Source of the DNA: Octopus vulgaris
Lineage: Eukaryota
DNA: 64,000 nucleotides
Assembly: GCA_951406725.2 (NCBI GenBank)
Contig: OX597823.1
Location: 98,828,001-98,892,000 of the forward strand
Reading direction: 5' to 3'
The position numbers and the translations under genes are program-made. The notes under the pieces were generated by a model. It did no database searches and was not told the origin of the DNA. It was given only the letters and a program-made list of their open reading frames with translations. Of this stretch, positions 306 to 59,197 are shown in pieces (the stretch's first letter is position 1; every line of letters starts with the position of its first letter).

Positions 306-930
306 GTGAGTAAAACAATCACATTTTATTCAAAATTGTTTGTGCTGTTGTCATAAATAAGATTAGATTATCAAATATTAGAACTTTGTCTAATTAATTA
401 CCATTTCACATTTGGTTTTTATACCTTATTTTAAAATTTAAAAAGCTTTAGTGTTTCTGTGTGTATATAAATATATATAAATTTTTTTTTTCAAAGGTCA
501 CAATACATGTATTAAGGGGCTACTAATAGTTTCATATGCTGAGAATTACTCAAACATATTCTTCAGGCACAAATCACACATAACAAATTAAAGAAATTGA
601 ATAAATGGAAGAAACACAATGAAGCTGAGAAGGCAGCATATATTTATTCAATTTCTTTAGTTTGTTATGATATGTGGTTTGTGCCTGAAGAATATGTTTG
701 AGATATTTCTCAACATATGAAACTATTAGTGGCACTAAAAGACATGTATTGTGTCCTTTAAATAAATAATATTTATCTCTCACCAGATAGAGTAAACTTT
801 TGTTGAATTTTCTATCATGGATTAGTACAATATATATATATATATATATATATTTAAAATATAAATTAGAGATAAAACCACTATTATGCAGCTCAAACAG
901 TGATAGACATAAATCAATACATAAATAACC

Positions 931-43800: not shown

Positions 43801-46800
43801 TCGACCTCGGCGGAATTTGAACTCAGAACGTAACAGCAGACGAAATACTGCTAAGCATTTTGCCTGGCGCACTAACGTTTCTGCCAGAATATAGTATATA
43901 GTGTAAACATGTAGTGTAAACATTCAAACATTATGACTATCTTTCCAAATCCTGCTGCATTTCACATAGAATATTTGGTTCTCCAAAGACATTTTGGTGT
44001 ATAAGTTAACCTACCTTTTCTGGGTGTGAAATTGAGTTGACTTCTTTAAACAGTTTGATGTCTCTGTAAATTCTAATAGATTCCTAATTTTAATTTCTTA
44101 CTCATTGATATATAGGGATTTACTCTTCATTGATAACATTTCAATAAAATATTCCATTTTTTTTATAGAGAAATTTGGTTTTGGTTACAGATTGCTGAAA
44201 ATCGTTATTTACAATGATAAGTGGACACATGAGGTGCATTTGTGATTACTTCAAAAGTCCAGTGTTTCTACAAAACTTGTGTATTCTCCACAATTTCTCT
44301 TGTGTAGCCCAGTTTGAAGACTGTTGCTGTAGGACCTAATTTCCAGTAAACTAAACTTAGAAAGAAAGCCAGAGGTACTTTGGCCAAATATGGAGTGTTG
44401 TGCCTGTGATCAGATAAGAAGAATCTACTAAGATGCAGGAAATGCTGTGTGGTAGGAAGCTTGCTTCCTAACCACATGGTCTTAAGTTCAATCCCACTAC
44501 ATGGTACTTTGGGCAATTATCTTGTTATAGCCCTGGGTCAATCAGTCTTGTGAGTAGATTTGGTTGGTGGAAACTGAAAAAAAGCCTGTCGTATACATAT
44601 GTGTGATCTTTGTGTTTGTCCCATTGCAATAGCGTAAGTGCCAAGCTTTAAGAAATTTAAATATAGGAGTTGATTTGTTCAATTAAACCCTTCAAGGTGG
44701 TGCCCCAGTATGGCTGCAGTCCAGTGAGTGAAACTAGTAGAAGATAAAAGGATATTCTTTATCCTCTGCAAATGTATCACTTTGAGAATCATAGACAGAC
44801 AAATGAATGCTTTTCTATATTTCTAAGATGAGGAATTATGTCCATTATTTACAATAGATGGATAGATGTCCTCACCTTGTTTGTTGTTACCAAATGAGCA
44901 CTCCATTAGTCAAGTAAAGGGTTGGGTTTGAAATTCCACCAGAACACCCGATGAAGGCTGGAGAGTACATCAGCCGAAATGCTGTGGTAACAACAAGCAA
45001 GGTGAGGACATCTATCCATCCATTGTAAATTATGTGAAGAATCCTTATTTGTCTATTCCTTTACTTTGGGGCAGGGGGTTTCAGTTACTGGACTGCAACC
45101 ACGTTGAAAAAACATTCTAATGTTGTTTACAAAAATTCTACAATGTCATTTTTAATTGTTAGACTAGATTTTTTTTTAAAAAGCCTTAAAAAGGAAAAGA
45201 AAGTTCTCAAAAGATCCAGCAAAACTCCAGAGGAATAAATAAGAAAAAGTGAATTTGTTTTGTCCTATACTTCAACTACTTGCTTTGAGAATAACTTCTT
45301 CCCACTACTATCAGAGGTCCTGAAAAATATGGGTCATGGGTTTTGTACTTTGTGTCATATAAACCCCTTGGAAATTCAGATAAGCTCACATCTTATGTGC
45401 CCATTGGTTCAAAGTAGACTTTAGACAGAGTAAGAAGGGCGATGTCAGTCTGTTGCTCATCTCACCAGCTGCTGCAAGACATCATTTTCAGTCAGGTGGA
45501 CCAACATGAAAGAAATTGCCTGGCTCAAGGAATCAATACATCATTCAGTTTGAGAATCAAACCTAGAATCTAAGATCATCAACTCCACTCTAACCTCTTG
45601 ATCACAGACCTTCTCTCCTCCACTCTAACCACTTCATCACAGACCTTCTCTCCTCCACTCTAACCACTTCATCACAGACCTTCTCTCCTCCACTCTAATA
45701 ACCACTTCATCACAGACCTTCTCTCCTCCACTCTAACCACTTCATCACAGACCTTCTCTCCTCCACTCTAACCACTTCATCACAGACCTTCTCTCCTCCC
45801 CTCTAACCACTTGATCACAGACCTTCTCTCCTCCACTCTAACCACTTCATCACAGACCTTCTCTCCTCCACTCTAACCACTTCATAACAGACCTTCTCTC
45901 CTCCACTCTAACCACTTCATCACAGACCTTCTCTCCTCCACTCTAACCACTTCATTACAGACCTTCTCTCCTCCACTCTAACCACTTCATCACAGACCTT
46001 CTCTCCTCCACTCTAACCACTTCATCACAGACCTTCTCTCCTCCACTCTAACCACTTCATCACAGACCTTCTCTCCTCCTCTCTAACCACTTCATCACAG
46101 ACCTTCTCTCCTCCACTCTAACCACTTCATCACAGACCTTCTCTCCTCCACTCTAACCACTTCATCACAGACCTTCTCTCCTCCACTCTAACCACTTCAT
46201 CACAGACCTTCTCTCCTCCACTCTAACCACTTCATCACAGACCTTCTCTCCTCCACTCTAACCACTTCATCACAGACCTTCTCTCCTCCCCTCTAACCAC
46301 TTCATCACAGACCTTCTCTCCTCCCCTCTAACCACTTCATCACAGACCTTCTTTCCTCCCCTCTAACCACTTCATCACAGACCTTCTCTCCTCCACTCTA
46401 ACCACTTCATCACAGACCTTCTCTCCTCCACTCTAACCACTTCATCACAGACCTTCTCTCCTCCACTCTAACCACTTCATCACAGACCTTCTCTCCTCCC
46501 CTCTAACCACTTCATCACAGACCTTCTCTCCTCCCCTCTAACCACTTCATCACAGACCTTCTCTCCTCCACTCTAACCACTTCATCACAGACCTTCTCTC
46601 CTCCACTCTAACCACTTCATCACAGACCTTCTCTCCTCCCCTCTATCAAAGCATTATGAAAATAACAACCAACTCTTAATAAATTATATTTTCCTTCTTT
46701 TCAGCATCATAGATGAATCACCAAGATGGTTAATTTCCAATAGTAAATTTGAGGAGGCAAAAGATATTTTTGAAAAGATTGCCAAAAGAAATAAGGCTGT

Positions 46801-47607
46801 ATTTACTCCTTCTTCCTTGCAGCAAAGTCAGGAAACAACATCTCAAACCACAGACCAAACAAAACCAACTCAAAAAGTCAGTCTTTTTCATTTGTTCAAA
46901 TCAAGAATTTTATTAATACGATGTGCAATAATTTCCTTCAACTGGTAAGTAATATTTTATTAAATTTTAAGTTTGAATTCAAGCTGAAACTTTACTAATT
47001 TTAACATTCTGTCAACCAGTGAGATATCTCTAACTTTAGACAGATTAGAAATTTCTCTTTATTTCTTGATTCTATAAAGGCAATAAGACTGGTAATCTCA
47101 TGATTACCAGTCATGATCATAAGATCATGGGTTCAATTCCTGTAAATGGAATTTGCAGATTCTCTGTTTATTTGAAGCAAGTTTCATAAAAGGATATTCT
47201 CCTAATGCAACTTTCAGAAACTGTCAGTAGAATTACTTTCCAAAGTAAATATGTGGAGCATCTTATCCTAACAGACCAAAATGCATATATATATACATAG
47301 GGGGTGGGGAGTAAGAAAAATCAACAAAATTGCACGTTGTAAATAAAAAAAGTGGAGGCTTTTTATGAAAGGTAACGACAGATATATACAATTAGATGAA
47401 CTGAGGTAAGAATAAAAGTAATAAAAGTCATAAAAGTCATTTATTATGAAATTATTAAAGAGATTCAAGCATACCGCAGTTTCGTAAGATACTATTCATT
47501 GCTTTTTACTTTTTTTATTTACAATGTGCATTTTCGTTGATTTTTCTTACTTTCCCCTTACATTTCCACGTGTAGTTTCTATTTTTTTTTTTGTAACATA
47601 TTTCTAT

Positions 47608-47645
<38 letters not shown>

Positions 47646-50600
47646 TAAACATGATTTACAAGTGTACGTGTGAATGTTTATATTCTGCATCATCAAATGA
47701 AAGCATAGAGCAAAAGCATGGTGACTTTGAATTGACATTTCCTGTCGACAAATCGTCCTCTATCTCTGTTTTCAAAGACAAATGGAATTAATGGAATAAA
47801 AAATAAACAGTTCCTTATTTAAAATAAGGCAAGGATTAGACACATGAAAGGTATCTAGCTTTAAAACAATGATTCAATAATAAATACTCAGCTAACCCAT
47901 GCTCACATGGAAAACAAACATAAAACAAATGGACTAATGAATTACACTTAAAGATGATTAGAGAATACGTGTACTTATTGCATCCATTTGCTATAAACAG
48001 GAATATTTTTCTAGTTAATATTTTAGTTTCTCATCATTTACAATTATATTTTGTTTTTCGGTTTTGTATCAAAAGTTGAAGAATATATTGAACTAGTTCA
48101 TTTTGCTTCTCTTTTACAGGATGGTTGTGAACATGGTTTTTTTTGGACTCCTCTTTGGTGTAGGAGAACTTGGCTTAAACATATATTTCAGTACATTTCT
48201 TTTTGCTGCTGTGGAGTTTCCAGCCTACATTTTCCTTTATTTCACTTTGGACAGATGGGGAAGGAAACCTCTTTATTGTTCATTAATCTTATTATGTGGA
48301 GTGGCATGTGCTTCATCATCATTTGTGTATGTTTGGGGAAAAGGTTTGTACTAAGTTTTTGCATCTGGTTTGCTAGATTCTTTGTGTGAATTCGTGTGTT
48401 GAAACAAATTTTATTGTGTCTAGAGAGAGTCATTATGCCAATATTATTAACACGCAGACTGGTTCAATTCTACTCCTTTATTATTAGTCAGTAGGTTAAA
48501 TATTAACTAACCAGTTAACTTATAATAGAGGAGTGGAAATGAACCTGTGCATGTGTTAATAATATTGGTACAATGACTCTCCCTAGACACAACAAAGTTT
48601 GTACTAAGCTTACACAGTTTAGCTTGTTTTGCAACCACATAGTTTCCAGGTTCAGTCTCACTGTGTGGCACCTTGAACTTTTGGACATATCCAAGTCAGA
48701 TTTGAAATGAAATGTGAAATATCTTCAGATCACTACGGGTTACAGGTTTTAGTTGTTACATTTCAGATTTGTTTGGTCTGACCATATTTCTGGCATTAAT
48801 AGGAAAATTTAGTGTCTCTGGAGCATCCACTGTTATTAGTAACATAGCATCAGAACTACTGCCCACGGTCATACGCAATACTGCTTTTGGTTTATGTTCC
48901 TGTCTTGGAAGACTGGGTGGAATGTCAGCCCCTTACATTACCCTCTTGGTAAGAAAGTTTTACGTGTTTTTTTGTTTGTTTTTTTATATATCACCCAAAT
49001 GAGTCTCTCTCCCCTGCAACTCAGTTTCCTAATTCCCTTCCCTCCACCCATTCACTGCATTCCCCACCCCATTATCTCCCACTTTCCTTTTGTACTGTCA
49101 AGAACTTACCTACCCACTCACCCTATCCAGTCCTCTGTACCACTTCACTCATATATACACCTCTGTAACTTGAGGCTGCACCCCAACACATCTTTACCAT
49201 CTCTCTCTCTCTCTCTCCTTTCCCATCCAATTTCATTGCTGTCAACCACCCGAATACTACACATCCCCTTACATTTTTTTTGTCACCCTTGGGGGTCATA
49301 AGAGATATTATACAGCCTGTATCCATGAGGGCTTTGAACGCCTTCCCCCAACCAGGATTTCAACAGGTACCTAAGATAATTAGCAAAGTATGGTACATGC
49401 TACGAAATCACTCACAAATGGCAGTTAGTTGTATTTTATTGTACTGCACTGTTTGTTTTGATCTCAGTTGTAAGAATTACACTTTTTTTTTAAAATCTTT
49501 TAGTCAAGGGTGTAGGTAATGCCCATGACCCATCATAGGGCCTCCAAACTAGAGGCACATGGCTTAGTGGTTAGGGTGTTGGACGCATGATCATAAGATT
49601 GTAGTTTTGATTCCTGAACCGAGTGACATGTTGTTCTTTGATCATTCCTTGATTGTTCTTGAGCAAAACACTTCATTTCATATTCCTCTAGTCCACTCAG
49701 CTGGCAAAAATGAGTGACCCCACGATGGTCAGCTTCCTAAGTCCAGAAGGGGATATCTGCACCACAGAAACTGGGAAACTGGCCCTTATCAGTCTAAATG
49801 ACTCAAGAAGGATCTTTACCTTTCAAAGTCTCTAAACTAGAGAAGCATGGAAGGAATGCATTCTCAAACTAGAAACTTGACCTGAATGCTTGCAAAAGAG
49901 TTAAGAGATAAGAGCCGGGTTGTGTTGTTAAACCAGGTGATGGGTTATGTGTGCTACCAACCTTATTTTACTGGTGACCTTAAGAAAGTTCAATACCCTG
50001 TTATTCCCACCATTAAGATTCTTAAATTTTGTCTTCCTTCTGATCTCGTCATTGGGAAACTGAATCCTCCATCCATTTGAATCTAACTTTCAGCTAAGGA
50101 ACTAGTATTTTGAAGTCAACAGAAACTGATGCAAACATAAGCATTTCATTCCTATAAAATATATTCTATTTCAGAGCAATTACATTCCTACTAAATTTGG
50201 TAAAAGTTTGCCACTTATTCTCTTTGGAGTAGCTGCTTTAATAGCAGGATTTCTTTCACTTGCTCTGCCTGAGACTCTAGGTGAAAATTTACCAGACACA
50301 ATTGAAGATGGAGAAAAATTTGGAAGGTAATTATAACGACAGGTAATACTGAAATCATCATCATCATCGTTTTTAGGCCTGCTTTTTCACACCGAGTTAC
50401 ACATGATGTTTTCGAGACAGTGTTTCCAGCCATGTGCTCCTTCTGATATCAACCCTTTTACTTGCTTTTCACAATACAGAGATATGTTACTTACTCTGTA
50501 CATCAAAATGCACAGAGTTTAACAAGTAATACTGAAAAATCTATTTTAAATTACAAAAATAAATTGTGAAAAATTTTATTTCATATTTCCAGTTTATGTG

Positions 50601-51606
50601 TTTTTATCTGTGAGGGTGCATGGTCATGAGATTGGTTTCAATTCCTAGACTGGGTGGTGTGTTGTGTTCTTAAGCAAAACACTTTATCTCACATTGTTCT
50701 GTGATCACTTCGACACCTGATGGATTGTACACCATGCACCAGTTCACAGAAATTCAAAGAAGCCCACCATGCTATAAACAAACCATTTGTGCCAGTCGTT
50801 CAGCAAAAGTTGAACACTTAGATATTGTCTTCGATGCGAGAGTTCATCATGCTTATATCACACGATGGATAATTCCATAGAGATTTCTAAAATATTTTTT
50901 CTTCTTCATTAAAACAATAAGCAATTGATATTCCCAAAACAGATACAGTAGTTGTGTTTCGAATACTTTCGATGTAAGGTATGCTCAGTCAGGACTGACT
51001 GGACCAAAACAACACCATCACATGAATAAACAGGGATTCTACATAGGGATTTAACAATTAACTGATTGTTTTGGCCCCTCACAAATTAACCCTCGGGAGT
51101 GATGGATTTTTATTTTTTTTTTACTTATTTTGTTTGATAAATATTATGATATAAATAATTATGCTGATGATGTTCCACTATTTCTGTCAACTAAGCCAAC
51201 AAACTTTAAATCTCTTTGATTAGAACACAACATGGTTGACATGAAACATTGCTGTGATAGGACACAGCCAGAGTTTCTACACGTTGTATGTTTGTGAGCT
51301 TGGATGAATTAGCGTCCTATATCATCATCATCATCATCATCATCACCATCATCATTTTAACATCTACTTTTCCATGCATGGATCCAACAAGACTTCTTTG
51401 AATCAGAATTCTTGATTGCTCAATGCCTCTTATGATGCCAACACTACCCTGTTTCCAAACAAGGTGATATTTCCCCCATGGCAGTATATGACAGTTTGAA
51501 TAACAGTGATACAAGGACATGTGTGCACACACACACACACTCTGTGTGTGTGTATATGCATGTATGTATGTATGTATGTATGTATGTATGTATGTATGTA
51601 TGTATG

Positions 51607-51650
<44 letters not shown>

Positions 51651-54600
51651 TATATAGATAAGAAAGTTTGTTTGGTAAAGCACGTGGGTGAATATATAAG
51701 AAAATAGTAAAGTGTGAAAAAACGACAGAAGGCTTAAATGTTAAAAAATATATATATTTGTGTCAAAATGTCTGGAGAATATTGGAAAAATTTTTTTCCC
51801 TTTCCTTAAAATGACATAATTTTAAAATTTTTAAAGAAATTACCGGTTTCGCGTGTAGCTTTTCAAATTTCTTGTGACGTTATGTTTATATTGCATGGAA
51901 TTATCGTTGTTTTTATTTCCAGGAGATTTCTAAATAAGGGGAGGTAGTGAGTGATTTTTTCCGGTGTAGGGGAGATAATCGCTTAAAAATTTTTTTTCCT
52001 TTTTCCTTGTTAATTTCTCTGTGTCAGTATGTTCGGATGGTTGAGTCTGGGTTTGTACTTTTCAATGAAGAATGTTTCCTTGTTCAGTCTCATTTGTGTT
52101 GATGATCCGAAAGCACATTGGTAAAATGGGAAGATTAAAAATTGTGGCAGTAGTTGCTTTGCGCATTTCTCAATGTGCTCACTAAAAGGTATCATTCTAT
52201 ATTCTGGGAATGCAATCTGTTGTCGATGCAGTGTGCATCTGCGCCTGAGTGATAGTCCCGTGGAACCCACGTAGTCTTGGTGGCAGCCCGAGCATTTAAT
52301 AACATAAATTATGTTTTCAGAGGCACAAGTAAAGTTAGATTTGATCTTAAATTTCTGTCCCTCTTTAAAGAAGAATTCTGATCCTTCCAATAGGTTAGGA
52401 CATGTTGCACAGTTCGATCTACCACATTTTTTTACTTTTGCATCCGTAATTTTAGAAGACAATTTTGCCTTTGTGAGAATCTTTTTAAGTGATTTAGGCT
52501 GTTTGTAGTAATTAAAAAAATTAACCTTAAAATAGAAACAGACATTTTTTACAAAGCCACAGACGCCAAACAATACCTTCTTTTTAATTCATGCCACCCA
52601 AGACACACTAAAACAAACATCCCCTTCAACCTTGCAAGAAGGATATGCACAATAGTGTCAGAACAAAATACCAGGAACTTTAGACTGCAAGAACTCAAAA
52701 ACACCCTAATTGACAGACATTACCCAGCTCAACTCATAGAGGATGGGATCAGACGTGCAACAGAAATCAACATAGAAACTTTAAGAAAAGTTCAACACAA
52801 CAACACACCTTCCCCGAAAATACTACCTTACATATCTACATACAACCCCAGAAACAAAGAAGCCTTCACCATCATCACCCAGAATTTACCAATACTTCAT
52901 AAAAACCCAAAATTAAAGGAAATTCTAAACATACACCAAATCATTAAAAGCTACAAACAGCCTAAATCACTTAAAAAGATTCTCACAAAGGCAAAATTGT
53001 CTTCTAAAATTACGGATGCAAAAGTAAAAAAATGTGGTAGATCGAACTGTGCAACATGTCCTAACCTATTGGAAGGATCAGAATTCTTCTTTAAAGAGGG
53101 ACAGAAATTTAAGATCAAATCTAACTTTACTTGTGCCTCTGAAAACATAATTTATGTTATTAAATGCTCGGGCTGCCACCAAGACTACGTGGGTTCCACG
53201 GGACTATCACTCAGGCGCAGATGCACACTGCATCGACAACAGATTGCATTCCCAGAATATAGAATGATACCTTTTAGTGAGCACATTGAGAAATGCGCAA
53301 AGCAACTACTGCCACAATTTTTAATCTTCCCATTTTACCAATGTGCTTTCGGATCATCAACACAAATGAGACTGAACAAGGAAACATTCTTCATTGAAAA
53401 GTACAAACCCAGACTCAACCATCCGAACATACTGACACAGAGAAATTAACAAGGAAAAAGGAAAAAAAATTTTTAAGCGATTATCTCCCCTACACCGGAA
53501 AAAATCACTCACTACCCTTATTTAGAAATCTCCTGGAAATAAAAACAACGATAATTCCATGCAATATAAACATAACGTCACAAGAAATTTGAAAAGCTAC
53601 ACGCGAAACCGGTAATTTCTTTAAAAATTTTAAAATTATGTCATTTTAAGGAAAGGGAAAAAAATTTTTCCAATATTCTCCAGACATTTTGACACAAATA
53701 TATATATTTTTTAACATTTAAGCCTTCTGTCGTTTTTTCACACTTTACTATTTTCTTATATATATATATATATATATATATACGTTTATATATTTGTTGT
53801 GCAAGATTTATTATGAGAAGTCGTGTGTTGAAACATATTGTTATATTTCGGAACGGTCATTTTGCCAGTTTAGCCAATAAAAACACATGCACTATATATT
53901 TGGTGTTATTTTGCTTCAGTGTTATTTATTTTTTACTTTAAAGAAGAAAGCAAAGGACCACTGATGCGGTCACAGGAGTGGGACGAAAGAACTCTGGCTG
54001 AAATAAGATTAAGATTAATGTAAAAAATAAATAATACTGAAGCAAAATAACACCAAATATATAGTGAGTGTGTTTTTATCGGCTAAACTGGCAAAATGAC
54101 CATTCCGAAATATAACAATATATATATATATATATCATCATCATCGTTTAGCGTCCGCTTTCCATGCTAGTTCCATGGACGGTCCAACTGGGGTTTGGGA
54201 AGCCAGAAGGCTGTACCAGGCCCAGTTTCATCTGGCAATGTTTCTACGGCTGGATGCCCTTCATAACGCCAACCACTCCATGAGTGTAGTGGGTGCATTT
54301 TATGTGCCACCAGCACAGGTGCCAGACGAGGCTGGCAAACGGCCATGATCGGAAGGTGCTTTCTACGTGCCACCAGCACGGAGGCAAGGTGAGGCTGGCA
54401 ACGGCCACGATCGGATGGTGCTTTTTACGTGCCACCGGCACAGAGGCCAGTCGGGGTGGCACTGGCAATGGCCACGTTCGGATGGTTCTCTTATGCGCCA
54501 CCAGCACTAGTATCACAGCTACAATTACCATTGATGTTGATCAATTTCGATTTTGATTTTCACTTGCCTCAACAGGTCTTAACAAGTAGAGTTTCATGTC

Positions 54601-57600
54601 CCAAGAAGGAAAAGTATGCATAAGTGGACTGGCTACAGGTAGAGGCCACGGGTTATGGTCTCACTTGTCCTGCTGGGTCTTCTCACGCACAGCATACTTC
54701 CATAGGTCTCGGTCTCTTGTCATTTCCTCGGTGAGACCTAAAGTTCGAAGGTCGTGCTTCACCACCTCGTCCCAGGTTTTCCTGGGTCTTCCTCTTCCAC
54801 AGATTCCCTCAACCGCTAGGGTGTGGCACTTCTTCACACAACTATCTTCATCCATTCTTGCCACATGACCATACTAGCACAAACGTGTCTCTTGCACACC
54901 ACAACTGATGCTTCTTAGGTCCAACTTTTCTCTCAAGGTACTTACACTCTGTCGAGTATGAACACTGACATTACACATCCATCGGAGCATACTGGCTTCA
55001 TTTCTTGCATGCTTACGCATATCCTCAGCAGTCACGGCCCAAGTTTCACTGCCATGTAGCATGGCTGTTCGTACACATGCATCATACAGTCTGCCTTTTA
55101 CTCTGAGCGAGAGGCCTTTTGTCACTAGCAGAGGTAAGAGCTCTCTGAACTTTGCCCAGGCTATTCTTACTCTAGCAGTTACACTTTCAACACACCCGCC
55201 CCCGCTACTGACTTGGTCACCTAGGTAACAGAAGCTATCAACTATTTCTAGGTTTTCTCCCTGGAATGTGGTGGAAGTTGGTCTCGGCACATTTTCAGTG
55301 TTTATTGCTCCTGAGCATCTGCTACATACAAAAACTATCTTCCTAGTTAGCCTTCCTTTGACGTTGCTGCACCTCTTATGTGTCCCTAGCTTACACTTGG
55401 TGCATCTTATAGAGTTTCTACCTATGCCTTTTCTACAGATTGAGCAGGGCCATCTACCTGAAGGCGTTTGTGATTTGCCTGCCTTCCTACTTATTAGGAC
55501 TTTGGTTTTAGCTAGGTTGACTCTAAGGCCCTTTGATTCTAATCCTTGCTTCCACACCTGAAACTTCTCCTCCAGTTCTGATAGTGACTCAGCAATTAGA
55601 GCAAGGTCATCAGCGTAGAGGAGCTCCCAGGGGCATCCTGTCTTGAATTCCTCCATTATTGCCTGGAAGACTATGATAAATAGGAGGGGGCTGAGGACTG
55701 AACTTTGGTGGACCCCTACCTCTACCCGGAATTCTTCACTGTACTCGTTGCCAACCCTCACGGCTCACACAGCTCTCACTAACCATTCATCTATCCCTAG
55801 TTTCCTCATTGACCACCAGATAAGGGATTGGGGTACCCTGTCGAAGGCTTACTCCATGTCAACGAAAGCCAGGTATAGGGGCTTATCTTTGGCTAGGTAT
55901 TTCTCCAGTCATTGGGTATGACTCCTTCGTGTATCACCTGGTTAACTATACAGGTGACTAGGCTATAGCTGACACTGCCAGATATTTTGAGCATCTCTGC
56001 AGTAATTCCTGATGGGCTTGGGACTTTCTCTGTCTTCATGCTTCTAATTGCCTTAACTACCAAGGTACTGTCAACTCGGATAGCTGGTTCCTCTGTTGGG
56101 TCAACATTCAGCAGATTCTCTTTATCCCATTCATTTTCTTTATTCAGCAACATTTCATAGTGGCGTCTCCAAACCTCTCTCTTTGCATCCTCATTTAGCG
56201 CAAGTGAACCATCATCCATGCGAACACATTTCTCTCCTACCACATCATGATTCTCTCTCACACACTGTCTTGCAACACGAAATACCTCAAGTCTTTGGTC
56301 CTCACGGTGCAGAACATTGGCAAATTTTTTCTTATCAGCTTCCCCTCTGGCTAAATAAACCTGTCTCCTAGCTTCCCTTTTGGCAGTCTGATACAATTCC
56401 CTGCTTCCACCATTCTTCCAGTCCTTCCAAGCCTGTCTCTTTTCTCTAATAGTCTACAACATTGTTCCACCACCACATTATTTTAGGTCGAGAGGGGACT
56501 TTGCACCAACCACAGATCTGGTCAGTGGCTCTCAGCAGGTTGTCCCTTAGAAACGTCCAGTTGTCTTCTACCCCATGTGAAGCTCTATCCCCTTCTACTT
56601 CATCAAAGGCTTCAAGTAATATGTCCCTAAGTCTCTGTCCATTCGCAGGATCTTTAAGCTTTCAGATCCTTCATCTCCATGTTGGTCGTCTTCTGGTTGT
56701 CCTCTTAGTCCTGATCCTAAAGTCACTAACTACCAGTCTATGTTGTGGGGCACATTCTTCGCCTGGGAAGGTTTTGGCATTTATAAGCAGCCATCTTTCC
56801 CTTTTCCTGGCAAGGATGTAGTCAATTTGGCTAGTATGTCGGCCCGATCGGTAGGTGACTAGGTGGCTGGTAGGTTTCCTGAAGTTAGTGTTGCAAACCA
56901 TAAGATCATTTGCATCACAGAACTCCAGCAGCCTGGTTCCCTCCTCATTGTGTGAACCATAACCATGGCCTCCATGTACACCATGGAAGCCCCCAGCATG
57001 TTGTCCAACATGCCCATTGAAGTCACCAGCCACAAAGAGAAGGTCTCTGTTGTTCGTCAACGAGGTAGTCTGCAGTAGGGTGTCATAGAATCGGTCTTTC
57101 TGTCCATTGGGTAGCCCCAGCTGAGGTGCATAGGCCGATATAATGGTTGCTAATCCATGATGAAGCACTAATCTAATCTTAAGTATTCTATCACATACTC
57201 TGATTACCTCAATTACCTTATCTACCCATTTTTCAGCGAGAAGTATACCCACGCCCCCAACCCCGTCAGTGTTCCCTGCCCAGAAAATCTTGTACCTGTG
57301 TTCTTTGCCTGTGAGGAACCTAGCAGAACCTCCTCTCCACCTTACTTCTTGGATGCAACATAAATCAACACGTCTCCGTTCAAGCATCTCAACAATCTCA
57401 CCAGACCTACCTTTCAGTGTGCCAACGTTGAGAGTGCCAACCCTGAGGGTGTGGGAGGTATGGGCCCTAGAGACCCTGGGACGGGGAACAGTGGCGTCAT
57501 GTACCTGAAAAGAGAGCTCGCATTTGACAGAATTCATAAGCAAACAATGATCTTAAGTTCAACCTGCTTACACTAAACTATCACGTTTTGCACTGTATGA

Positions 57601-58116
57601 TCACTACCTTATATAGTGGGGATGGTGTTCGCGTAAGGCCTTTAGGTGTTCATGGGAGACAAGCAGAGGAAGACGAGATGAGATAAGGACTTCCGGTAAA
57701 GGTGGAGGGGGCGGAGGTGGGGCAGGCGAACTGGGAACGATGGGCAAGAAATTTAAGTGATAGAAAAGGCCGATAGATGAGGGAGAAAGAGAAGATTAGA
57801 GACGAAAGGCTGTGTGATTGTGTGATAAGTTTTCATGAGTGAAAGAATATGTTGTGAGGAAATGCGTGAGCTAGGGTTTGAGACAAAAAGACATCGACAG
57901 TATATATATATATATATGTATGTATATATATATGTATGTATGTAATGTGTGTGTGCGTGTATATATATAAAGTTCATGTTCAGTTAAATGAAGGAAACAA
58001 AATGGAGAGCAAAGATAATGATAATAATAATGATGATGATGAATATATACATATATATATATATACACACACTTCTCATATATACATACACACACAAATG
58101 TATGCATATGTATGTG

Positions 58117-58151
<35 letters not shown>

Positions 58152-59197
58152 ATATATGTATATGTATATATGTATATATATATAATTGTTACCGCCATAT
58201 TAATATGACAGTCTTATATATGTAAGACTAAAAGCTGTCGCTGATTAGCTCCATGAGGGCATCGCCTTAAGATAGCTATTTGACACACAAACTGTGTCCA
58301 TTATAACCTTCGAACAAGGGAGGTCAGCCGCTTCACACTGCCAGTCAGACAGTTACAGATGCGTTTCAGGGTATTTGCCCTTTGTCAATGTAACGTAGTC
58401 AGACCCAGCAGGTGTCGCCACTGATCGTCTCTGTTCGAAGGTTTTATTTCGGTGGAAGGTTTTATTTACCGAGTTTCGGTGGAATACATCCACTTGTTTT
58501 CAATAATAGAAATATTAAAATTACTAAGTCTCTCTAAAAGAGATTACGGCAGCGTTACTGGAAATTAATTGTTATCGCCATATTAGTCTTACATATATAA
58601 GACTGCCATATTAATATGGCGATAACAATTAATTTCCAGTAACGCTGCCGTAATCTCTTTTAGAGAGACTTAGTAATTTTAATATTTCTATTATTGAAAA
58701 CAAGTGGATGTATTCCACCGAAACTCGGTAAATAAAACCTTCGAACAGAGATGATCAGTGGCGACACCTGCTCGGTCTGACTATGTTACATTGACAAAGG
58801 GCAAATACCCTGAAACGCGTCTGTAACTGTCTGACTGGCAGTGTGAAGCGGCTGACCTCCCTTGTTCGAAGGTTATAATGGACACAGTTTGTGTGTCAAA
58901 TAGCTATCTTAAGGCGATGCCCTCATGGAGCTAATCAGCGACAGCTTTTAGTCTTACATATATAAGACTGCCATATTAATATATATATATATATATATAT
59001 AATGTGTATGTATGTAATACATAAAATATCAGAACTGAGATACTATACATATGTATGTATAATATAATGCATATTAAATATTTTAACTAAATTCTAATCC
59101 TTTTCTATTATTTCTTTCTTTTAACAGGAAGGAAAAAGACAATGCTACCAAAGAAAATATTGCGATAATAACTTTTAAAAAATATGAAAGCATGTAA
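25147..59197 (+). CDS. SLC22-family transporter gene B, complete, 10 exons, 550 aa; exons 25147-25289, 30992-31205, 34014-34117, 38516-38670, 42979-43147, 46705-46944, 48120-48343, 48767-48948, 50175-50326, 59128-59197
   Basis: ATG start [17 protein letters not shown]; Cys- and N-glycosylation-site-bearing extracellular loop (CAIP..NDT..C..C..WVYD..C); [33 protein letters not shown] motifs. All introns are GT-AG; exon lengths sum to 1653 nt in frame. Confidence 0.94.
26868..27112. repeat. Zero-spacer palindromic foldback element
   Basis: Centre AAAATTTTCGAAAATTTT (26985/26986), arms ~115 bp; single arm also present at ~20105-20230. Confidence 0.8.
27905..28660 (-). mobile_element. R4/Dong-like LINE 5' ORF fragment
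   Basis: ORF 27942..28454 (CY..SEP..R.YRKQM...W...LVDQANAI) resembles the N-terminus of RLE LINE proteins. Confidence 0.55.
28850..29200 (-). mobile_element. LINE (RTE-X-like) 3' ORF fragment
   Basis: [11 protein letters not shown]...LLLWKP motif. Confidence 0.6.
29210..30660 (-). mobile_element. L1/Tx1-like LINE ORF1 relic with (ACC/AAC)n low-complexity tract
   Basis: [12 protein letters not shown]...H...C knuckle remnant and Thr-rich N-terminus; clade assignment uncertain. Confidence 0.45.
30992..31205 (+). CDS. SLC22 gene B exon 2 ([10 protein letters not shown]...CHAWVYDKS...)
   Basis: Extracellular-loop Cys residues and WVYD motif; cag/gtaagt. Confidence 0.92.
34014..34117 (+). CDS. 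SLC22 gene B exon 3 (104 nt; LNFVCHR...[10 protein letters not shown])
   Basis: cag/gtaagt; VC and G...G..SD motifs. Confidence 0.92.
34315..34698 (-). mobile_element. tRNA-derived SINE (same family as 23159-23570)
   Basis: Reverse-complement match along its whole length. Confidence 0.85.
36915..37745 (-). mobile_element. R4/Dong-like LINE 3' fragment (zinc knuckle + REL endonuclease), flanked by TAT/TAA repeats
   Basis: [30 protein letters not shown]; homologous to 22240-22790. Confidence 0.8.
38516..38670 (+). CDS. SLC22 gene B exon 4 (155 nt; KGRKLS...LRFFAG)
   Basis: cag/gtgagt; paralogous to 151-305. Confidence 0.92.
38680..39430 (+). mobile_element. Internally deleted Penelope-like element relic
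   Basis: Asn-rich ORF ending KPKVINLS (resembles the pre-RT motif of Penelope ORFs), followed by a decayed hammerhead at 39346-39380 and a TA-rich tail. Confidence 0.5.
39475..40817 (+). mobile_element. RTE-LINE, 5'-truncated copy
   Basis: [13 protein letters not shown]...GRGRPRKTW; 3' UTR and (TGA)n tail; close match to 54135-55635. Confidence 0.92.
41171..41790. repeat. Foldback element; left arm holds a hammerhead-like motif (41204-41289, -)
   Basis: Arms ~41171-41325 and ~41645-41790 are inverted; reverse complement TGCAG-CTGAAGA-TAGCTC...GAGCCA ctt-GAAA-AGGTCG-TA-CTGCA. Confidence 0.7.
42979..43147 (+). CDS. SLC22 gene B exon 5 (169 nt; IEIVPHSHR...IRDWHLL)
   Basis: cag/gtaagt; RDW motif. 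Confidence 0.92.
43667..43888 (-). mobile_element. tRNA-derived SINE (Meta-core-like)
   Basis: Near-identical to 8187-8417. Confidence 0.85.
44845..45032. repeat. Short foldback element with a decayed hammerhead in its spacer (44943-44988, +)
   Basis: Arms ATTTACAATAGATGGATAGATGTCCTCACCTTG / CAAGGTGAGGACATCTATCCATCCATTGTAAAT; AACAC-CCGATGA-A-GGCTG..CAGCC-GAAA-TG-CT-GTGGT. Confidence 0.65.
45583..46644. repeat. 35-bp minisatellite, ~30 copies (CCACTCTAACCACTTCATCACAGACCTTCTCTCCT)
   Basis: Direct tandem repeat with no spacers; period 35 confirmed by recurrence every 420 nt (12 units). Confidence 0.97.
46705..46944 (+). CDS. SLC22 gene B exon 6 (240 nt; IIDESPRWL...SFNW)
   Basis: cag/gtaagt; ESPRWL motif. 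Confidence 0.93.
47467..47504 (-). ncRNA. Minimal type I hammerhead motif with A3-U8 core pair
   Basis: Reverse complement: AAGCA-ATGAATA-GTA tct TAC-GAAA-CTGCGG-TA-TGCTT. Confidence 0.65.
48120..48343 (+). CDS. SLC22 gene B exon 7 (224 nt; [10 protein letters not shown]...VEFPAY...DRWGRK)
   Basis: cag/gtttgt; DRxGRK motif. Confidence 0.92.
48356..48596. mobile_element. Foldback element inserted at the exon 7 splice donor, with a 12-bp duplication
   Basis: Arms ~48410-48500 and ~48505-48595 are inverted; GTTTGTACTAAG repeated at 48344-48355 and 48597-48608. Confidence 0.6.
48767..48948 (+). CDS. SLC22 gene B exon 8 (182 nt; GKF...ELLPTVIRN...[10 protein letters not shown])
   Basis: cag/gtaaga; ELxPT..RN motif. 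Confidence 0.93.
50175..50326 (+). CDS. SLC22 gene B exon 9 (152 nt; LPLILFG...[17 protein letters not shown])
   Basis: cag/gtaatt; LPET/LPDT motif. Confidence 0.92.
51834..51873 (-). ncRNA. Identical hammerhead copy in the inverted Penelope arm
   Basis: Exact reverse complement of 53582-53621. Confidence 0.8.
52511..53449 (+). CDS. Penelope RT thumb + GIY-YIG endonuclease, uninterrupted partial ORF with no native start
   Basis: [24 protein letters not shown] (RT C-terminus); CxxxxCxxC linker; [19 protein letters not shown]...R...H...H...E...KPRLN (GIY-YIG). Confidence 0.88.
   Translation: MKKINLKIETDIFYKATDAKQYLLFNSCHPRHTKTNIPFNLARRICTIVSEQNTRNFRLQELKNTLIDRHYPAQLIEDGIRRATEINIETLRKVQHNNTPSPKILPYISTYNPRNKEAFTIITQNLPILHKNPKLKEILNIHQIIKSYKQPKSLKKILTKAKLSSKITDAKVKKCGRSNCATCPNLLEGSEFFFKEGQKFKIKSNFTCASENIIYVIKCSGCHQDYVGSTGLSLRRRCTLHRQQIAFPEYRMIPFSEHIEKCAKQLLPQFLIFPFYQCAFGSSTQMRLNKETFFIEKYKPRLNHPNILTQRN
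53582..53621 (+). ncRNA. Minimal type I hammerhead ribozyme (U3-A8) in the Penelope terminal repeat
   Basis: AAGAAAT-TTGAAAA-GC tacac GC-GAAA-CCGG-TA-ATTTCTT; 7-bp stem I, palindromic stem III, predicted cut after A53614. Confidence 0.8.
53820..54122. repeat. Foldback element; spacer holds a degenerate hammerhead-like motif (53958-53997)
   Basis: Arms ~53835-53936 and ~54020-54122 are inverted; CCA-CTGATGC-G-GTCACA ggag TGGGAC-GAAA-GAAC-TC-TGG. Confidence 0.65.
54135..57750 (-). mobile_element. RTE-clade LINE, near full length with internal deletions (APE endonuclease + RT)
   Basis: ORF 56671..57543: [29 protein letters not shown] (APE). ORF 54874..55761: GVHQ.S.LSPLLF, YADD (RT). (ATG)n tail. 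Confidence 0.95.
58352..58394 (-). ncRNA. Inverted hammerhead copy (stem III CGCG>CGCA)
   Basis: Reverse complement equals 58785-58827 except for one G>A change. Confidence 0.72.
58785..58827 (+). ncRNA. Minimal type I hammerhead ribozyme (U3-A8), GUC cleavage site
   Basis: GTTACA-TTGACAA-AGGG caaata CCCT-GAAA-CGCG-TC-TGTAAC; predicted cut after C58821. Confidence 0.82.
59128..59197 (+). CDS. SLC22 gene B terminal coding exon ([22 protein letters not shown])
   Basis: Strong polypyrimidine tract + cag, phase-compatible, TAA stop, Lys-rich start like gene A's last exon. Confidence 0.65.

What the first reader, a model, noticed from the sequence alone, without database searches (positions are those of the whole stretch)
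53582..53621. Ultra-minimal 40-nt hammerhead with U3-A8 core in the terminal repeat of a young Penelope element
Seen: 133 nt after the GIY-YIG stop codon lies AAGAAAT-TTGAAAA-GC(tacac)GC-GAAA-CCGG-TA-ATTTCTT, with an identical copy in the inverted arm (51834-51873). Established: Penelope-like pseudo-LTRs carry minimal type I HHRs whose palindromic stem III forms by dimerisation. Inference: this coding element family uses a non-canonical U3-A8 core with only a 2-bp stem II, which CUGANGA-based searches would miss. It could also supply RT/endonuclease in trans to the nearby non-coding HHR elements.
Basis: partly seen in the sequence, partly recalled or inferred. Interest (0 to 1): 0.8.

Follow-up and report, generated by a model that had tools for sequence, protein, structure and literature searches.

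The report
Penelope transposon hammerhead, known U3-A8 variant
A 40-base hammerhead-ribozyme motif sits in the terminal repeat of a young but broken Penelope-like transposon copy; it likely cuts RNA only when two copies pair up, and its 'unusual' core and small size are already known features of these ribozymes, so it is mostly ordinary.

Summary
The motif is real: exact at 53582-53621, identical inverted copy at 51834-51873, no comparable hit in 300 shuffles. It is a minimal type I hammerhead in the pseudo-LTR of a Neptune-type Penelope-like element. Homologous elements carry a hammerhead at the same place (16 of 44 loci, 0.14 expected), with compensatory changes in all helices and at the 3-8 pair. 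Two copies are predicted to fold into a double hammerhead. The claimed novelty fails. U3-A8 in Penelope hammerheads, with the same UUGAAAA core, was published in 2014; 2-bp helix II is common, and relatives are smaller. This scan also noted U3-A8 on other DNA. This copy is 5'-truncated and lacks the RT core, so it cannot supply RT in trans. Its two hammerheads lie on opposite strands and would be buried in an ~815-bp duplex in the host pre-mRNA. Cleavage is untested. Two leads are more interesting. U3 can pair with A17, a possible built-in brake. An unrelated 365-nt non-coding, retrozyme-like element at 58.2-59.0 kb has a canonical-geometry U3-A8 hammerhead and Penelope-type insertion marks.

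The parts
53582..53621 (+). Minimal type I hammerhead motif: helix I 7 bp, U3-A8 core, helix II 2 bp, palindromic helix III (53608-53613), predicted cut 53614/53615
51834..51873 (-). Identical copy of the hammerhead in the inverted arm
52509..53449 (+). 5'-truncated Penelope-like ORF: end of RT thumb region, CX4CxxC linker, GIY-YIG endonuclease with CCHH; no start codon, no RT core
53450..53763 (+). 3' non-coding region (pseudo-LTR), 72% A+T, ending in a (TA)n tract
51692..52508 (-). Inverted 5'-truncated copy of the element's 3' end (matches 52951-53763; 0 substitutions, one 4-nt gap)
51657..51691 (-). 35-nt 'tail' present only on the inverted arm, followed by (TA)n; also present in a contig of another run
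   Evidence: X14 record 9; tail described in PMC8557442
58586..58982 (+). Unrelated 365-nt non-coding unit with 35-nt terminal redundancy, strongly self-paired, ending in (TA)n (retrozyme-like)
58785..58827 (+). Second U3-A8 hammerhead: helix I 6 bp, helix II 4 bp with CAAAUA loop, palindrome ACGCGU, C17
58186..58603 (-). Inverted copy of the non-coding unit, with its hammerhead at 58352-58394 (one change in the palindrome) and a 13-nt end extension
50327..59127 (+). Last intron of an SLC22-like transporter gene that hosts both elements (exon joins read by eye)
   Evidence: gene model is inference

Best explanation
The motif is the minimal type I hammerhead of a Neptune-type Penelope-like retrotransposon, which likely cleaves after A17 only when two copies on a tandem-element transcript pair through their ACCGGU palindromes, probably slowly and with protein help, and which would be inert at this truncated locus. 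Shown here: the anatomy, its fixed place behind the endonuclease ORF across homologues, compensatory changes including C3-G8 to U3-A8, and the loss of RT in this copy. Predicted: monomers cannot form helix III, while two strands fold into the double hammerhead. Inferred from published PLE work: cleavage releases unit-length element RNA from tandem read-through transcripts of full-length copies elsewhere in the genome; the element's RT and GIY-YIG endonuclease then insert it at (TA)n, giving 5'-truncated, inverted, tailed copies like this one. Here the two copies face opposite ways, so any one transcript holds a single hammerhead plus its exact antisense, and would trap it in a long duplex.
For: Exact motif, absent from shuffles. 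Of 80 fetched loci, 46 reached the endonuclease end and 44 had 200 nt or more behind it: 16 of 44 have a sense-strand hammerhead 74-574 nt downstream, 1 of 44 antisense, 0.14 expected by shuffling; cores were 13 C-G, 2 U-A, 1 C-U. In 28 rows picked by me (26 loci plus 2 window motifs), 27 have a Watson-Crick 3-8 pair (21 C-G, 6 U-A) and 25 a palindromic helix III. On 17 aligned rows 92% of cells pair, 12 of 13 pairs show changes on both sides, covariation 0.71 against 0.19 shuffled and at most 0.15 slid. The MFE of two 40-mers is the double hammerhead (-15.5 kcal/mol; -14.1 in the catalytic register; one monomer -4.0). A model from C3-core relatives only finds it first. Published: dimeric S. 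mansoni minimal hammerheads cleave weakly and monomers do not (PMC4209133); U3-A8 cores are active in vitro (PMC3088659); the anole PLE hammerhead cleaves only with the element's protein (PMC11167929). Truncation. Antisense trapping: 200-nt arm duplex -313 kcal/mol.
Against: No cleavage datum exists for this sequence. With 80-220 nt of flank, the cofold MFE is no longer the full double hammerhead: helix I loses to neighbouring A/U hairpins, though the palindrome still pairs between strands in 2 of 3 contexts. U3 can pair with A17, and that register is 1.4 kcal/mol more stable, like the inactive C3-G17 trap (PMC3884650). Helix II is 2 bp with no loop-loop contact. In the anole element hammerhead mutants did not affect insertion in vitro, and no read ends were found at the cut site. 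Covariation counts are not corrected for relatedness, and rows were selected for fitting the motif. 28 of 44 loci had no hit under the strict scan; 7 of 25 rescanned gave plausible ones on relaxing. No full-length tandem copy of this family was seen.
Confidence: 0.7

Rival explanations
1. The motif is a hammerhead by descent but no longer cleaves: A+T-biased drift turned C3-G8 into U3-A8 and left a U3-A17 trap, and the fold is kept only as a protein-binding or structural signal, or not kept at all.
For: Pseudo-LTR is 72% A+T; U3-A17 pairing is predicted; context folds lose helix I; hammerhead mutants did not affect insertion in vitro in the anole element; Naiads spread without hammerheads.
Against: Both positions 3 and 8 changed together and all other core letters, G10.1-C11.1, the palindrome and a 7-bp helix I are intact in a very young family; only 1 of 28 rows has a broken 3-8 pair.
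Confidence: 0.22
2. The hammerhead acts at this locus on the host: it cuts the transporter pre-mRNA inside its last intron, or this copy supplies enzymes in trans.
For: The + strand copy lies in the sense direction of the host intron. The endonuclease frame is open.
Against: Only one sense copy per transcript; its exact antisense is transcribed first, about 1.7 kb upstream. The ORF has no start codon and no RT core.
Confidence: 0.05
3. Chance resemblance in A+T-rich DNA.
For: No Rfam hammerhead match; monomer z-score -0.37.
Against: 0 of 300 shuffles; same position in 16 of 44 homologues against 0.14 expected; found by an independent model.
Confidence: 0.03

Closest known systems
Minimal hammerheads of metazoan Penelope-like elements, including the U3-A8 variant of S. 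mansoni Cercyon (Cervera and de la Pena 2014, PMC4209133; read: main text parts 1-2 of 4, supplement file 2 parts 1-2 of 3)
   Same: Type I fold in the pseudo-LTR; palindromic 15.2-16.2 region; G10.1-C11.1; U3-A8 covariant, one PLE-associated row with the same UUGAAAA core; copies on opposite strands in truncated elements.
   Different: Their typical motif has a long helix II (7-8 bp), a short helix I and an extra base after A9. This one has helix II of 2 bp, helix I of 7 bp, no extra base, and a CCGG insert. It sits in a Neptune-type, not Cercyon, element.
Natural hammerhead core and stem variants (Perreault et al. 2011, PMC3088659; read: passages and part 3 of 8)
   Same: C3-G8 to U3-A8 covariation seen in nature and active in vitro; stem II of two base pairs is called common; weak stem III is called common.
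   Different: Those short-stem ribozymes are often stabilised by pseudoknots; none was looked for here.
Small PLE-associated hammerhead variants that cleave as dimers (Lunse, Weinberg, Breaker 2017; not held, seen only as a title and through the review PMC6765202, passages)
   Same: Small size, PLE association, dimer mechanism.
   Different: Could not check whether their set already holds U3-A8 with a 2-bp helix II.
Neptune-clade PLEs (features as given in Craig et al. 2021, PMC8557442; read: passages)
   Same: C-terminal GIY-YIG with CCHH, CX2-5CxxC linker, (TA)n target, inverted 5'-truncated copy, 30-40 bp tail.
   Different: This copy has no RT; placement against named Neptune and Nematis references was not tested.
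Non-LTR retrozymes (Cervera and de la Pena 2020, PMC7229834, passages; Li et al. 2026, 10.64898/2026.07.22.740005, part 1 of 5 and passages) - for the 58-kb element
   Same: 170-400 nt non-coding, highly self-paired unit with a canonical-geometry type I hammerhead; loop 2 is the CAAAUA loop of the Schistosoma ribozyme (PMC2632901, passages).
   Different: U3-A8 core and A10.1-U11.1 pair; here one unit plus an inverted copy in (TA)n rather than a head-to-tail array.

Membership tests
Minimal type I hammerhead of PLEs | Core U4 G5 A6, A9, G12 A13 A14, A15.1-U16.1, H17 and a Watson-Crick 3-8 pair | tested here: met
   3-8 pair is U-A; covariation in relatives
Minimal type I hammerhead of PLEs | Helix I closes the 5' and 3' ends; helix II starts with G10.1-C11.1 | tested here: met
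   7 bp and 2 bp
Minimal type I hammerhead of PLEs | Palindromic helix III allowing a double hammerhead | tested here: met
   ACCGGU; cofold MFE of two 40-mers is the double hammerhead; not the MFE with longer flanks
Minimal type I hammerhead of PLEs | Located in the pseudo-LTR behind the RT-EN ORF | tested here: met
   133 nt after the stop; same place in 16 of 44 homologues
Minimal type I hammerhead of PLEs | Typical (not universal) long helix II and extra base between 9 and 10.1 | tested here: not met
   2-bp helix II, no extra base; shared with L008, L015, L037 and others; published rows with small palindromic helix III also vary
Minimal type I hammerhead of PLEs | Self-cleavage as a dimer | not testable with these tools
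   needs a bench assay
Neptune/Nematis-type EN+ PLE | C-terminal GIY-YIG with CCHH and an upstream CX2-5CxxC linker | tested here: met
   C169/C174/C177, C213/C216, H235, H252 invariant in 19 aligned proteins; Pfam GIY-YIG only weak, E 0.013
Neptune/Nematis-type EN+ PLE | Inverted 5'-truncated copy, one-sided 30-40 bp tail, (TA)n target | tested here: met
Neptune/Nematis-type EN+ PLE | RT phylogeny with named clade references | not tested
   no named reference elements in hand; this copy has no RT core
Autonomous (enzyme-donor) copy | Intact ORF with RT catalytic motifs | tested here: not met
   ORF begins after the RYLDD motif of 600-800 aa relatives; no RT motif in six frames
Non-LTR retrozyme (58-kb element) | 170-400 nt non-coding, self-paired unit with a type I hammerhead | tested here: met
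   365 nt, z -6.7, 0 of 100 shuffles fold as well
Non-LTR retrozyme (58-kb element) | Head-to-tail tandem units | tested here: inconclusive
   one unit with 35-nt terminal redundancy plus an inverted copy at this locus; other loci not available
Non-LTR retrozyme (58-kb element) | Expressed as circular RNA | not testable with these tools
   no raw RNA reads available

The most novel reading that the evidence does not exclude
In this genome a Neptune-type element and a sequence-unrelated 365-nt retrozyme have each come to a U3-A8 hammerhead. In the coding element U3 pairs with A17 as a built-in brake, so that the ribozyme fires only when dimer pairing or the element's own protein opens it (4 of 6 U3-A8 rows have A17 against 4 of 21 C3-G8 rows, post hoc p 0.044). 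The retrozyme, with a tertiary-stabilised U3-A8 core invisible to CUGANGA descriptors and Rfam, carries the (TA)n target, inversion and one-sided extension of PLE insertion: a direct footprint of retrozymes being moved by Neptune enzymes, in a high-copy family that surveys have missed.
Probability: 0.2. Interest if true: 0.55.

Novelty: new member of a known kind. Interest (0 to 1): 0.25.

Why it matters
As given, it adds one more family to a published class. Its practical lesson is that Rfam and CUGANGA descriptors miss U3-A8 hammerheads, so ribozyme counts in such genomes run low. The role of PLE hammerheads is still open, and a young family with an intact motif is a usable test case. The neighbouring non-coding element may offer a clean test of whether Penelope-like enzymes move retrozymes, which is so far argued from co-occurrence and sequence kinship.

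Tried and rejected
No genome is held for this window, so family copies could not be aligned. Rfam gave no hammerhead match in the window or in local scans of either motif. Related-locus scans of genome contigs and viral contigs found no relative. No RNA holder was listed among the sequencing runs, which says nothing about expression; all runs laid were contigs, so cut ends could not be seen. Contig depths over both elements were far above those over the nearby non-repeat stretch, but the tool warns this is no copy number. No sequence kinship between the 58-kb unit and the pseudo-LTR (best local score 20). The tree is the quick one, the careful search did not finish: 4 U3-A8 rows need 4 changes against 13 C3-G8 rows, starred branches force only 2, and L025 was left unlabelled; so repeated origin of U3-A8 is suggested, not shown. 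Weak descriptor hits at 47499(-), 38004(-) and 20250(-) were set aside as chance. Not held and not read: Lunse 2017, Przybilski and Hammann 2007; file 1 of the 2014 supplement was not searchable and bioRxiv supplements are closed, so prior mention of this exact family cannot be excluded. Searches for prior print: 'hammerhead + U3-A8' gave only the 2014 paper; 'hammerhead + C3U + G8A' none; 'hammerhead ribozyme + octopus' 5 papers, 4 listed, none on this by title and abstract start; a 2026 octopus repeat annotation has no mention of hammerhead, ribozyme or retrozyme in its main text.

Full report
Observation. It reads as a type I hammerhead: helix I of 7 Watson-Crick pairs, core UUGAAAA, helix II of 2 bp opening with G10.1-C11.1, GAAA, the palindrome ACCGGU, and A17, with the cut predicted at 53614/53615. 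A strict descriptor gave no hit in 300 shuffles of the window. Rfam misses it, and as a monomer it folds no better than shuffles, as expected for a motif whose helix III forms only between two copies.

The element. The ORF aligns with 600-800 aa RT-endonuclease proteins, but only from behind their RYLDD motif. No RT motif occurs in any frame, and full-length relatives match only the 3' part. A 99%-identical protein from another assembly continues N-terminally, and two contigs that match from 52509 carry further upstream sequence absent from the window (X3 record 17, X14 record 11). The copy is therefore 5'-truncated at about 52509. It has the CX4CxxC linker and the CCHH GIY-YIG of Neptune/Nematis-type PLEs (features from PMC8557442). 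It has an inverted truncated copy, a 35-nt tail on one arm only, and (TA)n at both ends, all standard PLE anatomy. The arms differ by no substitution and one 4-nt gap in 817 columns. Of 24 listed runs, 20 hold 0.79 or more of the sampled words, in 10 studies and under 7 organism labels; one contig from another label covers the inverted hammerhead and tail with no other letter and one gap outside the motif (X14 record 9). The family is thus young and uniform. The host is probably a mollusc, likely an octopod: this is inference from named homologues and recalled repeat types, not a result.

Is it a ribozyme by descent? Eighty homologous loci came from metagenome contigs. Of 44 with enough sequence behind the endonuclease, 16 have a sense-strand hammerhead 74-574 nt downstream; 1 has an antisense hit; 0.14 are expected by shuffling. 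Several loci are near-copies of each other, but no two of the 16 positives by the test used. A relaxed rescan of 25 of the rest gave 7 more plausible motifs. Among 28 rows that I picked, 27 keep a Watson-Crick 3-8 pair (21 C-G, 6 U-A, 1 C-U) and 25 have a palindromic helix III. On 17 aligned rows, 92% of cells pair and 12 of 13 pairs change on both sides, far above shuffled and slid controls; these counts are not corrected for relatedness, and rows were chosen for fitting. A model built from 18 C3-core relatives alone ranks the two window copies first.

How it most likely works. Two 40-mers are predicted to fold into the double hammerhead, with helices I and III between strands (-15.5 kcal/mol; one monomer -4.0). 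Published minimal PLE hammerheads do not cut as monomers and cut weakly as dimers (PMC4209133). The anole one cuts only with the element's protein, and its mutants did not affect insertion in vitro (PMC11167929). I infer slow, dimer- or protein-gated cleavage of tandem transcripts from full-length copies elsewhere. Two results temper this. With natural flanks the full double hammerhead is no longer the MFE. And U3 can pair with A17, 1.4 kcal/mol better than the catalytic register, like the C3-G17 trap (PMC3884650). At this locus the motif is probably silent: the copies face opposite ways inside the last intron of an SLC22-like gene, so the pre-mRNA holds one hammerhead and its exact antisense, which would pair over about 815 bp.

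Comparison with what is known. U3-A8 in PLE hammerheads was reported in 2014, about 1,300 hits in S. mansoni, found after the first descriptor missed it; the supplement lists a PLE-associated row with the same UUGAAAA core. Natural U3-A8 and 2-bp stem II were reported in 2011. Among relatives here, 2-bp helix II with CCGG is found in C3-G8 form (L008, L015), 5 of 26 have a shorter core-to-cleavage span, and two motifs are 32 nt. U3-A8 occurs in 4 of those 26 loci and is scattered on a weakly supported quick tree. So the finding is a new member of a known kind.

The trans-supply idea. This copy cannot supply RT. The nearest non-coding hammerhead element, at 58186-58982, is a 365-nt unit with 35-nt terminal redundancy and an inverted copy, set in (TA)n, with a 13-nt extension on one arm. 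It folds as a long rod (z -6.7) with a hammerhead of canonical geometry: helix I 6 bp, helix II 4 bp, the CAAAUA loop 2 of the Schistosoma ribozyme (PMC2632901), and again a U3-A8 core. It looks like a non-LTR retrozyme (PMC7229834; bioRxiv 2026). Its insertion marks fit PLE enzymes, but it shares no sequence with this pseudo-LTR, so which family moves it is open. The C3-core model scores it only at chance level (12.6 bits); its support comes from the descriptor scans and its fold. An older inverted element near 500-830 has a C3-G8 core, so U3-A8 is not a rule for this genome.

Verdict. Observation confirmed; interpretation partly supported; known variant in a new family; cleavage untested. 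Interest 0.25. The U3-A17 brake and the U3-A8 retrozyme-like element are the leads worth a bench test.

Noticed in passing
window 58186-58982: 365-nt non-coding, strongly self-paired unit plus inverted copy in (TA)n, with a canonical-geometry U3-A8 hammerhead (CAAAUA loop 2); retrozyme-like; missed by Rfam; probably more interesting than the given finding.
   Followed up: partly
window 53589 and 53614; L021, L031, L052: U3 can pair with A17; 4 of 6 U3-A8 rows have A17 against 4 of 21 C3-G8 rows (post hoc Fisher p 0.044, no correction for relatedness or A+T bias).
   Followed up: partly
window 500-830: Older inverted pair with a C3-G8 hammerhead-like motif and long helix II (cores at 685 on + and 566 on -), ending at (TA)n; both copies look degenerate.
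   Followed up: partly
window 53958-53997: Degenerate hammerhead-like stretch (CUGAUG ... GAAA) in the loop of the inverted repeat 53835-54121 next to the element's 3' end; weak model score (9.6 bits).
   Followed up: no
L011:1407-1438 and L019 about 220 nt behind the ORF: 32-nt hammerhead-like motifs with only 5 and 3 nt between A9 and G12, i.e. helix II almost or wholly absent.
   Followed up: no
window 52520-53760: Near-identical family sequence is held by runs under 7 organism labels; recent activity in close species, transfer between species, or loose labels.
   Followed up: no
window about 54130-57600 (-): Decayed RTE-type LINE (AP endonuclease, RT, PHD-like finger), very abundant; unrelated to the Penelope element.
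   Followed up: no
window 45559-46768: Array of about 30 copies of a 35-nt unit running up to an exon of the transporter gene.
   Followed up: no
L027:1525-1568, L040:1767-1808: Relatives with non-Watson-Crick 3-8 pairs (C-U; U-G), possible intermediates or decayed copies.
   Followed up: no
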